DNA from: Escherichia coli
GTDB taxonomy: Bacteria; Pseudomonadota; Gammaproteobacteria; Enterobacterales; Enterobacteriaceae
NCBI RefSeq assembly: GCF_003790525.1
Contig: NZ_CP033635.1
Reading direction: 5' to 3' (one strand)
DNA: 64,000 nucleotides
Of the stretch, positions 6,001 through 9,000 are shown one piece after another. The first letter of the stretch is position 1. Each line of letters begins with the position of its first letter. The position numbers were made by a program.

Positions 6001-9000
6001 CGGCGCGGTTATGCGCTCGAGTAACTTTCGGGTTTCCACGCCCGGCACCCGTTTTATGAGGTGCAGGTGCACTATAATTCCACCCGTACTGGTTTTCAAT
6101 AGCTACATTCAACATTTTCTCTTACCTTTCATCACCGAAGTGAACTTTGTTGATGCGGTGCCAGGTGCCTCCAGGTGACGTTAACCAGTTAACAATTAAC
6201 GCCGGATACAGAGAATCCACCCATAACACTGTTTTTGGTTTTAACTGTTCCGCGTGCGCTGAGCCGCATTCACCACATCACAAAATTCACTTTAAAAAGG
6301 GCGGCAGAGCAGTCACGGAGTAAAACTGATACCGCCACGTCACCAGAAAATTGATAACAGAGGGCGTTGCAGCGGGGTTGTCACTCAGGCGCATGGTCAA
6401 CCTGACAACCCGGTGTCCTCAAGGGGAAGGGAACCCCGCCATGCTTACCGCCGCGCGCTTTCGTGTTGTGTGCCTGCTTTTAACCACGTCAGGCGAGGTG
6501 GTATCCTCTGAGGGGTCTGTTACCCGAGAGGAAATTGGTTATGAATACAATCAAGTTTTCTTGCCCAGAATGTGGTGGCGAAGTCTTCGACACATCCTTT
6601 AAGCCGCAGGGCTCTGACAGTTTCGCGGGAGCCATCTGCAAAAATTGTGGTCACCTTGTAACTGAAGATGAGTCCTCGCAATTCGATGAGGAAATCGTTG
6701 ACAATATCTTCGGTGTAATCACCGGAGCCTTTCTGAAGTAAAGGCACATACCGCTTAGTTACCGCTCTGATAATTCTTACCTGTCCGGCAATGGCGCTGA
6801 TGTCAATATAAAGCGCCATTGCTGCTTCTTTGCCGATCCCGGGATGCCTTCCATTCTGATGTTTGACTTCGCCCACTGAGAAATCCTCTGTTTCCCCTTA
6901 ACGCCGGGGTAGCGGAACAAAAACCTGCTGCATAGTTAAAGTTAAACCCTGCCGTCATGTTCATACGCCTCGGGCTGGCTACTTAACCCCTGACCACTGC
7001 CTGGTAACTCGAAGTATTGCCCTGCGTTCTGTGGGGCGGGGTGGGTTGGTATGAAAGAAAGGATACCCATGGGTATCCAAAAAGTAAATACCCATGGGTA
7101 ATTTTTTTTGATGTATCTTAACTGGTGACTGGTTGTTTGGTGAGTTATGATGCGTTTTGTGCTTTCTTTTTACGGATTTCTTCGTAGATCATATTGTAAT
7201 ACTGTTTTTTCTCTTCAAGAGTTTTTAATAAGTTATCCGCTTCACTTTCAGGCAGTTCGTCTAAGAGATCTAAAAAAATACGTTGTCGTGGCGTTAGAAC
7301 CCTTGTTTCATAATTGGAGGCTGTGTTCGTTGATGATGAAACGATACCATCCATCCATCCCCGGGGTAACCCAAAGGACTCTTCTATAATCTCCACCATA
7401 TCATCAGCGATCCGTTTTTTTCCTTTTTTCCCCTCTGGGTACAACATTCTTGATACATAAGAAGGCTCGCGACCGATCTTTCTGGCCACGTTAACCGCTT
7501 TACCATCGCATTTCTCATCACGAATTTTGATGAGTTGTTGTCGTCTAAATTCATATTTGTCCATAGGTAAATAATAGATGCGATTACCGCAAGGTAAACA
7601 ACCCAAGGGTATTGACTTTTGTTTACCTGTGGGTATTCTTTTGCTGTGTTTACTAAGGAGTAGCTATGGAAGAATTAAGAATATTTCTCAATTCTCTTTC
7701 GTCAGATGAACAGCGTATGTTTGCATGTGAGTGTGGTACTAGCATCGGTTATCTAAGAAAGGCATTGAGTAAAGGTCAAATGTTAGGGGCATCGTTATGT
7801 GTCCTTATTGAGCGAGCCAGTAATGGTGAAGTTACACGTCAGCAACTAAGGCCTTTTGATTGGATGAATATTTGGCCCGAGCTGGAAGATACCAAAACGT
7901 TAACACAACCACTTACTAGGAGCTTGATTCATGAAAATCAAGCATGAACACATCCGCATGGCGATGAATGCCTGGGCGCGTCCTGATGGCGAAAAAGTTC
8001 CGGCAGCTGAAATAACCCGGGCTTATTTTGAGCTGGGTATGACGTTCCCGGAACTGTATGACGACAGCCATCCCGAAGCCCTGGCCCGTAATACCCAGAA
8101 AATTTTCCGCTGGGTGGAGAAAGACACCCCTGATGCGGTTGTAAAAATTCAGGCGTTACTACCAGCGATCGAAAAGGCAATGCCGCCTTTGCTGGTGGCC
8201 AGAATGCGTAGCCACAGCTCAGCCTATTTCAGGGAGCTGCTGGAGACACGAGAACGGCTGGTGAGAGACGCTGATGATTTTATCGCAGTGGCAATCGCCG
8301 GTTTCAATCAGATGAATCGTGGTGGCCCGGCGGGTAATGCTGTGGTGATGCACTGACTGGCAATAGTTATACCGGATCGCTTTCGGTAGTACGTGATTAA
8401 GGAATTCGGTATCAGAAGAGGCAATTATGGCCGCATTACCATACATGCAACTGTACATCGCTGATTACCTGGCTGACACCATGCATTTATCAGCAGAGGA
8501 GCACGGTGCGTATTTGTTGCTGATGTTCAATTACTGGCAAACAGGAAAGCCAATACCTAAAAACAGGCTGGCAAAAATTGCCCGTCTGACTAATGAGCGA
8601 TGGGCTGATGTGGAGCCATCCTTGCGGGAGTTTTTTCACGATAACGGCGATGAATGGGTGCATCTTCGGATTGAGGAAGATCTGGCATCAGTCAGGGAAA
8701 AATTAACCAAAAAATCAGCCGCCGGAAAAGCATCTGTTCAGGCCAGAAGAAGCAGAAAGGAAGCAGATGTTCAAACAAAACAAGAGAGAGATTTAACAGG
8801 TGTTCAAACAAATGTTGGTGTGGTGTTTGAACATAACGCAAACACAAAGGCAACTAATAAAGATACAGATAAAGAATTAAACCCCACACATAACGCGCGC
8901 GTGCGCGAGAGTGCTCCGACCAGTGAACCGAACGGTACGCCGTTGCAGGTGGCGGAACCTGAATTTCCGGATGGCCTGAGTGAACCCATCGGGAAATTTC

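What the first reader, a model, noticed from the sequence alone, without database searches (positions are those of the whole stretch)
6116..6880. Small zinc-ribbon protein gene convergent with the repressor, overlapping an antisense ORF
A 68-aa protein with CPECGG and CKNCGH motifs and a good RBS is encoded on the plus strand to the left of the repressor gene. A 118-aa ORF with its own RBS-like sequence overlaps it on the other strand. I favoured the zinc-ribbon ORF, but a leftward PL-type transcript from the operators at 7061..7103 would read the antisense strand. The true coding strand is unresolved.
Basis: seen in the sequence. Interest (0 to 1): 0.35.

Follow-up and report, generated by a model that had tools for sequence, protein, structure and literature searches.

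The report
Two genes on opposite strands
The same ~200 bases of this E. coli prophage appear to encode a small zinc-binding protein on one strand and part of a ~100-residue early-operon protein on the other, and both reading frames have been kept intact in at least ten diverged phage lineages, so asking which strand is the real gene is probably the wrong question.

Summary
A 66-aa C4 zinc-ribbon ORF (6541-6741, +) lies wholly inside a codon-aligned antisense ORF (6520-6876, -). The locus is the first-cistron slot of a dicBF/PL-type early-left operon. DicF sRNA (6299-6348, -) lies downstream, so the minus strand must be transcribed to make DicF.

The zinc ribbon is a real gene. It passes the NCBIfam ECs_2282 cut-off, has invariant Cys residues, keeps its SD and ATG in 12 lineages, and has the best dN/dS of the six frames (0.37).

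The minus ORF is not a simple shadow. It is open in all ten deep lineages (P between 7e-3 and 4e-6 under plus-only coding). It always points the same way as the surrounding operon. Its 26 codons outside the overlap show a coding signature in non-E. coli clades: 17 synonymous against 9 nonsynonymous (p=3e-4), and the best BLOSUM frame in 44 of 51 lineage pairs.

Within the E. coli clade, which includes this window, the minus translation drifts neutrally (7 synonymous against 28 nonsynonymous), and two plus-frame nonsense alleles exist.

Public annotation is split: RefSeq calls the plus gene and phage submitters call the minus ORF. Neither protein has a known function. Expression could not be tested here.

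The parts
6541..6741 (+). Zinc-ribbon gene, 66 aa (ECs_2282 family): CPEC...CKNCGH core (codons 1-48) plus an acidic, amphipathic C-terminal tail
   Evidence: NCBIfam NF047912 57.1 bits against a cut-off of 37. All four Cys are invariant in 15 sequences. pN/pS is 0.37, the best of six frames. Phase counts for positions 1, 2, 3 are 5, 0, 15 (E. coli) and 51, 22, 79 (other clades). The AF2 model shows zinc-ribbon strands plus two helices, pLDDT 66.
6526..6534 (+). Shine-Dalgarno sequence of the zinc-ribbon gene (GAGAGGAAA)
   Evidence: An AAGAAGGA- or GAAGGAGG-type SD lies 7-9 nt before the ATG in all 12 lineages. In most of them it lies beyond the minus stop codon, so the minus ORF cannot explain its conservation.
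6480..6507 (+). Putative promoter of the zinc-ribbon gene: TTAACC, 16-nt spacer, TGG-TATCCT (extended -10)
   Evidence: The position and the motif TGnTATCYT are conserved across lineages (read from the alignment). It matches only 8 of 12 consensus positions and was NOT reported by the promoter scan. This part is inferred, not shown.
6505..6531 (.). Hairpin next to the plus SD and just 3' of the minus stop codon (CCTCT...AGAGG)
   Evidence: A hairpin is present at the same place in all lineages with different arm sequences: CTTGG/CCAAG, CGGTTC/GGACCG, CTTA/TAAG (by inspection). Which strand uses it is unresolved. Its 5' arm overlaps the putative -10.
6520..6876 (-). Antisense ORF, 118 aa from GTG 6876 (99 aa from ATG 6819), first cistron of the PL/dicBp-type operon (phrog_21318)
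   Evidence: phrog_21318 E=2e-61. The frame is open in all 10 deep lineages and always points the same way as its operon. Phage records annotate this ORF. The AF2 model is helix, helix, beta-hairpin, helix with pLDDT 69.
6742..6819 (-). The part of the minus ORF that does not overlap the zinc-ribbon gene (26 codons)
   Evidence: On short branches of non-E. coli clades there are 17 synonymous and 9 nonsynonymous changes (p=3e-4), with phase counts 16, 5, 5 (p=0.0095). The Klebsiella/Citrobacter clade gives 12 against 4. Six-frame BLOSUM gives 1.99 against 0.98 or less, and this frame is best in 44 of 51 pairs. There are 0 stops, against 3-12 in the other frames.
6884..6889 (-). SD (AGAGGA) for the GTG 6876 start of the E. 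coli-type 118-aa form
   Evidence: It lies 7 nt before the GTG, at the same distance from the conserved leader hairpin as the ydfA SD and ATG in K-12 Qin.
6891..6918 (-). Operon leader segment shared with the K-12 dicBp-ydfA leader (contains the hairpin CCCC-GGCGTTAA-GGGG)
   Evidence: blastn gives 96% identity over 28 nt to K-12 Qin just upstream of ydfA. Sequences are compared.
6788..6822 (.). Inverted repeat GCAATGGCGCT(13 nt)AGCGCCATTGC, 47 nt past the plus stop, containing the minus ATG 6819. It may be the terminator of the zinc-ribbon gene or a structure that masks the minus start
   Evidence: The core stem is present in 12 of 12 lineages. 75.6% of cells are paired, against 30-57% when the partner is slid, and the covariation score is reached by 5 of 500 shuffles. 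There is no strand asymmetry, 118 against 117 pairs. A T-run follows it only in some lineages (L098, L006, L009). The terminator scan did not report it.
6299..6348 (-). DicF sRNA, downstream in the same minus-strand transcript
   Evidence: Rfam RF00039, 65.1 bits against a gathering score of 48, full length. 95% identical to the K-12 Qin dicF region.
6146..6229 (-). DicB-family N-terminal fragment (pseudogene)
   Evidence: RefSeq annotation in the 100%-identical record: 'incomplete, missing C-terminus'. phrog_24763 E=6e-16.
7061..7103 (-). Operators and PL/dicBp-type promoter (TTTACT, 17-nt spacer, TATCCT) driving the minus-strand operon
   Evidence: Two TACCCATGGGTA palindromes, placed between the repressor gene and the leader. 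The promoter hexamers are read by eye.
7145..7564 (-). Immunity repressor (139 aa)
   Evidence: phrog_5736 transcriptional regulator, E=5e-70. Weak similarity to the DicA C-terminus, NF007257 24 bits, below its cut-off.

Best explanation
The locus is a compact cassette that encodes on both strands and moves as a unit among early operons of lambdoid (Rac, Qin and P22-like) prophages of Enterobacteriaceae.

Strand facing against the operon (plus, here): a small self-contained gene with a likely promoter, an SD and a hairpin after its stop codon. It makes a 62-67-aa protein with a C4 zinc ribbon and an acidic helical tail.

Strand facing with the operon (minus, here): an ORF of 93-118 aa. It starts inside that hairpin region, runs through the whole zinc-ribbon gene in the codon-aligned antisense frame, and stops at or a few codons past the zinc-ribbon start codon. 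It is translated as a cistron of the early transcript. In this window that is the PL/dicBp-type transcript, which goes on to DicF, the C4/IsrK/Rha module, Kil and the RecE-like exonuclease.

Selection maintains both reading frames. In this window's E. coli clade, the zinc-ribbon protein sequence is under purifying selection, while the minus ORF is kept open but its amino-acid sequence drifts.

Shown here: the frames, the start signals, the substitution patterns, the synteny and the DicF match.

Inferred: that both are translated; that the zinc ribbon is expressed from its own promoter when the early promoter is repressed (lysogeny) and damped by converging transcription on induction; and any function of either protein.
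For: Zinc ribbon is real:
- NCBIfam NF047912 scores above its cut-off.
- The Cys residues and the GH motif are invariant.
- The SD and ATG are conserved in 12 lineages, including where they lie outside the minus ORF.
- pN/pS is 0.37, the best of six frames.
- Plus-frame synonymous excess: p=7.5e-5 in E. coli and p=2e-5 in other clades.

Minus ORF is maintained:
- It is open in 10 of 10 deep lineages. Eight of these were found only through the plus protein.
- TTA, CTA and TCA are never used for plus-frame Leu or Ser. P is 3.9e-6 if the lineages are independent and 7e-3 if each codon state per site is counted once.
- Start codons with SDs are conserved.
- It always points the same way as the surrounding operon, whether that is PL or PR.
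- Its non-overlapping 26 codons show 17 synonymous against 9 nonsynonymous changes (p=3e-4), phase counts 16, 5, 5, and the best BLOSUM frame in 44 of 51 pairs.
- In the overlap of the Klebsiella/Citrobacter clade, changes fall 9, 2 and 9 on plus positions 1, 2 and 3. That is the pattern expected for dual coding.
- The only alleles that break the minus frame are frameshifts, which break both frames (L003, L102).

Minus strand is transcribed: DicF lies downstream, the leader is homologous to K-12's, and K-12 DicF is processed from the dicBp transcript (PMC10448788).
Against: - There are no expression or translation data for either strand.
- Inside the overlap, the minus frame's pN/pS is only 0.65-0.85. 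Its synonymous excess is not significant over all branches (51 against 101, p=0.13) and only marginal on short branches (p=0.022).
- The conditional BLOSUM tests are symmetric and confounded by transition bias.
- In the E. coli clade, which includes this window, the minus frame looks neutral: 7 synonymous against 28 nonsynonymous in the overlap, and 10 against 14 outside it (p=0.11).
- A profile of the minus N-terminus does not detect the deepest lineage, KP12 (E about 5).
- Two plus-frame nonsense alleles circulate in E. coli prophages. One is in 15 of the 98 loci examined. So the zinc ribbon is dispensable there.
- The promoter and terminator of the zinc-ribbon gene were not picked up by the consensus scans.
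- The sample is about 10 lineages and 49 unique sequences. The parsimony counts on long branches are rough.
Confidence: 0.68

Rival explanations
1. Only the zinc-ribbon gene is functional. The minus ORF is a shadow ORF that exists because the codon-aligned antisense frame lacks stops whenever TTA, CTA and TCA are avoided. Gene callers pick it only because it is longer.
For: The plus frame has the best dN/dS. The minus frame is neutral-like within E. coli. In a single sequence the shadow frame is open by chance about 10-40% of the time. Minus-frame constraint inside the overlap is weak.
Against: The minus frame is open in 10 of 10 lineages (P between 7e-3 and 4e-6). The ORF extends 78+ nt beyond the zinc-ribbon gene, with a conserved SD and ATG. 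That stretch has its own coding signature (p=3e-4; BLOSUM 1.99 against 0.98 or less), which a shadow cannot explain. The ORF always points the same way as its operon.
Confidence: 0.14
2. The minus ORF is translated, but what matters is the act of translation rather than the protein. Keeping ribosomes on the early transcript while it crosses an antisense gene would prevent Rho-dependent polarity or RNA cleavage, and so secure expression of the downstream genes (DicF, Rha, Kil, RecE). The zinc-ribbon gene is the only sequence-specific product.
For: The E. coli clade fits this exactly. The ORF, SD and start are preserved in all 29 unique alleles while the amino-acid sequence drifts (7 synonymous against 28 nonsynonymous). 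The ORF occupies the first-cistron slot behind the conserved leader. Its stop lies at the far edge of the cassette in every lineage.
Against: In non-E. coli clades the N-terminal 26 codons are constrained as protein. No test of Rho dependence was possible, and the K-12 paper read here does not mention Rho.
Confidence: 0.15
3. Only the minus ORF is a gene. The zinc-ribbon ORF is a chance ORF with Cys-rich motifs that entered NCBIfam by mis-annotation.
For: Phage submitters annotate only the minus ORF. Plus-frame nonsense alleles exist in E. coli. The operon is transcribed on the minus strand.
Against: In the zinc-ribbon core, the most variable sites are minus codon position 1 (79, against 51 at minus position 3, and 15 against 5 in E. 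coli). That pattern is not seen in a frame that alone is coding. The four Cys, the GH motif and the plus SD and ATG are invariant even where they lie outside the minus ORF. The plus frame is open in lineages found only through the minus protein (L098, L100).
Confidence: 0.03

Closest known systems
ECs_2282 family putative zinc-binding protein (NCBIfam NF047912)
   Same: The plus ORF scores 57.1 bits against a cut-off of 37. It has the same length and the same CxxC...CxxC pattern, and RefSeq annotates it under this name in the 100%-identical record.
   Different: The family is only a 'putative' annotation with no known function. The family definition says nothing about the conserved ORF on the other strand.
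dicBF operon of the Qin cryptic prophage, E. coli K-12 (dicA / dicBp - ydfA - ydfB - ydfC - dicF - dicB)
   Same: The layout is the same: repressor, operator/promoter, leader, first cistrons, then DicF. The DicF/dicB segment is 95% identical, and a 28-nt leader segment and the position of the first start codon are shared.
   Different: K-12 has ydfA and ydfB where this window has the two-strand cassette, with no similarity by tblastn. ydfC is absent here. DicB is truncated by a C4/IsrK/Rha module. The repressor is not a DicA equivalog (24 bits against a cut-off of 101).
Antisense (embedded) overlapping gene pairs proposed in E. coli O157:H7, e.g. ano/ECs2385 and asa (PMC5960689, PMC6294744, PMC9927249)
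   Same: A complete ORF lies embedded antisense in another ORF, and automatic annotation keeps only one of the two.
   Different: Judging from the abstracts listed, those cases are presented on the basis of RNA-seq and Ribo-seq expression evidence. Here the evidence is the reverse. There are no expression data, but both frames are conserved across about ten diverged lineages in several genera, and each frame shows a substitution signature.
Prophage 'morons' and oppositely oriented inserts in early operons (e.g. sieB in Rac-like prophages)
   Same: A small gene faces against the early operon and has apparent promoter and terminator elements of its own. In L010, sieB lies next to the zinc-ribbon gene in the same orientation.
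   Different: Morons normally sit between genes. Here the operon strand keeps an ORF running through the whole insert.
Lar/RalR-type restriction-alleviation zinc ribbon of Rac (TIGR03655)
   Same: A small zinc-ribbon protein encoded in the early-left region of a Rac-like prophage.
   Different: It scores only 16.2 bits against a cut-off of 39.6, so this is generic zinc-ribbon resemblance and not membership.

Membership tests
ECs_2282 family zinc-binding protein (NF047912) | Score at or above the curated HMM cut-off | tested here: met
   57.1 bits against a cut-off of 37, residues 4-56 on profile positions 1-53 of 60.
ECs_2282 family zinc-binding protein (NF047912) | Four Cys in two CxxC knuckles (zinc ribbon) | tested here: met
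   C8, C11, C33 and C36 are invariant in 15 sequences, and G37 and H38 are also invariant. Zinc binding itself cannot be tested here.
phrog_21318 (minus-strand hypothetical protein) | Profile match over the full length | tested here: met
   E=2.2e-61, residues 20-117 on profile positions 1-98 of 99.
Sense/antisense dual-coding gene pair | Both ORFs intact across diverged relatives beyond chance | tested here: met
   10 of 10 deep lineages. P(minus open | plus coding) is between 7e-3 and 3.9e-6, and the reverse calculation gives 8.8e-5.
Sense/antisense dual-coding gene pair | Purifying selection on the plus frame | tested here: met
   pN/pS 0.37. Synonymous excess p=7.5e-5 and p=2e-5.
Sense/antisense dual-coding gene pair | Purifying selection on the minus frame, outside the overlap | tested here: met
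   Non-E. coli clades: 17 synonymous against 9 nonsynonymous (p=3e-4). BLOSUM 1.99 against 0.98 or less. Not significant in the E. coli clade (10 against 14, p=0.11).
Sense/antisense dual-coding gene pair | Purifying selection on the minus frame, inside the overlap | tested here: inconclusive
   Short branches outside E. coli: 22 against 29 (p=0.022). All branches: 51 against 101 (p=0.13). E. coli: 7 against 28, neutral. The conditional tests are confounded.
Sense/antisense dual-coding gene pair | Both products expressed (transcription and translation) | not testable with these tools
   No RNA-seq, Ribo-seq or proteomics was available, and no paper on this locus was found.
dicBF (Qin-type) operon | DicF sRNA downstream on the operon strand | tested here: met
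   RF00039, 65.1 bits against 48, model positions 1-52.
dicBF (Qin-type) operon | Intact dicB and the ydfABC cistrons | tested here: not met
   DicB is present only as an N-terminal fragment. There is no ydfA or ydfB homology and ydfC is absent.
dicBF (Qin-type) operon | DicA repressor | tested here: not met
   NF007257 scores 24.1 bits against a cut-off of 101. Only the C-terminal 50 residues resemble DicA.
Moron (autonomous transcription unit in a prophage) | Own promoter and own terminator flanking the gene | tested here: inconclusive
   Conserved TTsACC, 16-nt spacer, TGnTATCYT, and a conserved hairpin after the stop. Neither was reported by the consensus scans. The hairpin shows no strand preference.
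Lar family restriction alleviation protein (TIGR03655) | Score at or above the curated cut-off | tested here: not met
   16.2 bits against 39.6.

The most novel reading that the evidence does not exclude
The cassette could be an ancient, mobile 'strand switch'. One piece of DNA would yield a zinc-ribbon protein in the lysogen, from its own promoter while the early promoter is repressed. On induction it would yield a different, unrelated ~100-aa protein from the opposite strand. Converging transcription and the resulting double-stranded RNA would make the two products mutually exclusive. Both proteins would be functional, and the complete nesting would itself be the regulatory device.
Probability: 0.3. 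Interest if true: 0.8.

Novelty: new variant of a known kind. Interest (0 to 1): 0.58.

Why it matters
Long antisense overlapping genes in bacteria and phages are contested. Judging from the abstracts found in the literature search, the proposed E. coli cases are presented mainly on expression evidence. In this case both frames can be followed through about ten diverged lineages in Escherichia, Citrobacter, Klebsiella, Enterobacter and Serratia phages. Each frame has its own start signals, and each shows a substitution signature in a different part of the locus. Because the frames are codon-aligned, each gene can be knocked out with a change that is silent in the other. Nature has already made one such allele: GAG to TAG at 6670 is a stop in the plus frame and Leu to Leu in the minus frame. 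That makes dual coding directly testable. It also has a practical side. RefSeq and phage submitters annotate opposite strands for the same DNA, and each pipeline discards one of two probably real genes. Finally, this cassette replaces ydfA and ydfB at the head of the operon that produces the DicF sRNA, so it probably affects how DicF, Kil and RecE are expressed.

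Full report
WHAT IS THERE. The interval lies in the immunity/early-left region of a Rac/Qin-like lambdoid prophage of E. coli. It is 100% identical to chromosomal prophages in several E. coli genomes. Reading leftward on the minus strand, the order is:
- repressor gene (7145-7564);
- two TACCCATGGGTA operators with a PL-like promoter (7061-7103);
- a leader whose 28-nt core (6891-6918) is shared with the dicBp-ydfA leader of K-12 Qin;
- the 118-aa ORF (GTG 6876 to TAA 6520);
- DicF sRNA (6299-6348; Rfam 65.1 bits);
- a DicB fragment (6146-6229);
- a C4/IsrK/Rha module, Kil, and a RecE-like exonuclease.

On the plus strand, wholly inside the 118-aa ORF, lies the 66-aa zinc-ribbon ORF (6541-6741). 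The two ORFs are codon-aligned: plus codon position 1 faces minus position 3, and the second positions coincide.

PUBLIC ANNOTATION IS SPLIT.
- RefSeq/PGAP calls the plus ORF 'ECs_2282 family putative zinc-binding protein'. It passes the NCBIfam cut-off at 57.1 bits against 37.
- GenBank phage records (Escherichia phage Evi, PPompW prophages) call the 118-aa minus ORF. It matches phrog_21318 at E=2e-61.
- One RefSeq record even annotates a frameshifted minus-strand pseudogene at this place.

RELATIVES. Protein and locus searches recovered the module in about ten deep lineages with 52-81% nucleotide identity, and KP12 much further out. They are: E. coli; a Citrobacter/Klebsiella clade (L004, L005, L012-15); K. 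michiganensis (L006); C. freundii (L007-9); Enterobacter (L010, L011 and viral contigs); metagenomic L098, L099/100 and L104; Serratia (L103); and Klebsiella phage KP12.
- In every lineage both ORFs are intact and in the same relative frame.
- The only disrupted copies are frameshifts, which break both frames (L003, L102).
- The exhaustive profile search with the minus protein found only 7 clusters. Every one whose locus was examined carries the zinc ribbon on the other strand. Neither ORF was ever seen without the other.
- The module changes context. It lies right after the repressor in the leftward operon here and in L010, L098-L103. It lies after cro in the rightward operon in L004/L005, and further down a leftward operon in L006-L009. 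The minus ORF always points with the operon and the zinc ribbon always points against it.
- K-12 Qin lacks the module and has ydfA and ydfB in that slot.

THE PLUS FRAME IS CODING.
- Across seven deep lineages, the plus frame has the lowest pN/pS of all six frames in the zinc-ribbon core (0.37) and in the tail (0.51).
- Tree-based parsimony counts on 49 unique sequences give phase counts for plus positions 1, 2, 3 of 5, 0, 15 in the E. coli clade core and 51, 22, 79 in the other clades. Plus-frame synonymous excess has p=7.5e-5 and p=2e-5.
- The most variable sites are therefore minus codon position 1, which rules out 'minus-only' coding.
- The four Cys and the GH motif are invariant.
- An AAGAAGGA-type SD and the ATG are conserved in all 12 lineages examined, mostly beyond the minus stop codon.

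THE MINUS FRAME IS NOT A MERE SHADOW.
- A codon-aligned antisense frame stays open whenever the sense gene avoids TTA, CTA and TCA. With local codon usage that happens by chance in 10-40% of single sequences.
- It happens in all eight lineages that were found through the plus protein alone. The product is 3.9e-6. Counting each distinct codon state per site only once still gives 7e-3. TCT, TCC, TCG, AGC and AGT are all used for Ser, but TCA never is.
- The minus ORF extends 78 nt or more beyond the zinc-ribbon stop to a conserved start. Where nothing else is encoded it behaves as coding sequence:
  - Klebsiella/Citrobacter clade: 12 synonymous against 4 nonsynonymous changes, 11 of the 16 on minus third positions;
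  - short branches of all non-E. coli clades: 17 against 9 (p=3e-4) with phases 16, 5, 5 (p=0.0095);
  - between lineages, the minus ORF frame gives BLOSUM62 of 1.99 per residue against 0.98 or less for the other five frames, and wins 44 of 51 pairs.
- In the overlap of the Klebsiella/Citrobacter clade, changes fall 9, 2 and 9 on plus positions 1, 2 and 3. Both wobble positions are free and the shared second position is depleted, which is the dual-coding pattern.
- The E. coli clade differs significantly, with 8, 2, 25 (p=0.02-0.05).

LIMITS.
- Inside the overlap, minus-frame constraint is weak or unproven: pN/pS 0.65-0.85, and all-branch synonymous excess p=0.13. The conditional tests are uninformative.
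- In the E. coli clade, to which the window belongs, the minus translation drifts neutrally (7 synonymous against 28 nonsynonymous), although the frame is open in all 29 unique alleles.
- Two plus-frame nonsense alleles exist there: GAA to TAA at 6580 in 15 of the 98 loci examined, and GAG to TAG at 6670 in one. Both leave the minus frame open.
- The KP12 N-terminus is not detectably homologous on its own.
- There are no expression data.

ANATOMY AND LIKELY WORKING.
- On the plus strand the conserved block begins about 67 nt before the ATG with TTsACC, a 16-nt spacer and TGnTATCYT, a plausible extended -10 promoter at window 6480-6507. A hairpin next to the SD follows, with arm sequences that differ between lineages. 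After the ORF comes a conserved inverted repeat (6788-6822), followed by a T-run in some lineages. That is the anatomy of a self-contained moron-like unit.
- The consensus scans did not report either element, and the hairpin shows no strand preference. These parts are therefore inferences.
- The minus start codon sits inside the inverted repeat.
- In the E. coli form, an upstream GTG (6876) with an AGAGGA SD takes exactly the position that the ydfA start has behind the shared leader in K-12.
- In K-12, DicF is processed from the polycistronic transcript that begins at dicBp (PMC10448788). So the minus strand of the cassette must be transcribed whenever DicF is made here. This is an inference from homology of layout.
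- My best reading is therefore a two-strand cassette. A zinc-ribbon protein is made from its own signals against the operon. An early-operon cistron runs through it on the other strand.
- In E. coli the data fit a version in which translation of the minus ORF matters more than its product, for example to avoid polarity on the transcript that must reach DicF, Rha, Kil and RecE. In other clades the product itself appears constrained.
- Neither protein has a recognisable function. The zinc ribbon has only generic zinc-ribbon hits. The minus protein models as helix, helix, beta-hairpin, helix (pLDDT 69) with no specific fold match.

COMPARISON WITH WHAT IS KNOWN, AND NOVELTY.
- The zinc-ribbon family (NCBIfam), the minus ORF family (PHROG) and the dicBF operon are each known.
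- Antisense overlapping genes are a known but disputed category in E. coli.
- I found no description of this cassette as a conserved two-strand unit.
- I rate it a new variant of a known kind.
- Interest is moderate to high for people who work on overlapping genes and prophage regulation. It is tempered by the lack of expression data and by the weak minus-frame signal inside the overlap.

Noticed in passing
window 5876-6077 (-), inside ORF 5273-6115 (-): Full-length Rfam matches to C4 antisense RNA (73.8 bits) and IsrK (67.2 bits), plus a sub-threshold c4 a1/b1 target, lie inside the 5' third of the annotated 280-aa 'Rha family' ORF. The Pfam 'Ash' match (aa 14-106) covers that same RNA-coding stretch, and the Rha domain starts only at aa 118. 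An internal ATG at 5819 (-) with a GAGGA SD would give a shorter Rha protein downstream of C4, as in P1 c4-icd-ant and Gifsy-1 isrK-anrP. The long ORF, and perhaps part of the Ash family, may be a translation of RNA genes.
   Followed up: partly
window 6146-6229 (-) and 6349-6520: DicB is present only as an N-terminal fragment, cut by the C4/IsrK/Rha module. ydfC and about 460 nt present in 96%-identical relatives (H10-H21) are deleted here. So this prophage keeps DicF but not DicB or YdfC.
   Followed up: partly
window 7064-7100 and ~7600-7640: Two perfect TACCCATGGGTA palindromes form the left operators. Related half-sites (ACCCAAGGGTA, TACCTGTGGGTA) lie at the right operator, between the repressor gene and the YdaS-like cro analogue. 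The terminator scan mis-reads the left operators as a hairpin.
   Followed up: no
L010, L011 and L102 (upstream end of the minus ORF): In the Enterobacter-type lineage the minus ORF carries a ~32-aa N-terminal extension with a CKSCG motif. In that lineage the operon-strand protein may itself have acquired a Cys knuckle.
   Followed up: no
L002 2070-2363 and 2754-3047 (+): In relatives that keep ydfC, a 97-aa ORF (WP_032147075.1) is annotated twice on the strand opposite to the operon, next to ydfC and dicB. These are further anti-operon ORFs in the same operon and could be examined in the same way.
   Followed up: no
L010 3323-3823 (+): A sieB (superinfection exclusion) gene lies next to the zinc-ribbon gene in the same anti-operon orientation. 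This suggests the two could form one lysogen-expressed unit in that lineage.
   Followed up: no
window 6146-6287 (-): A sub-threshold Rfam match to STnc100 (32.7 bits against a gathering score of 47) overlaps the DicB fragment. It is probably not meaningful.
   Followed up: no
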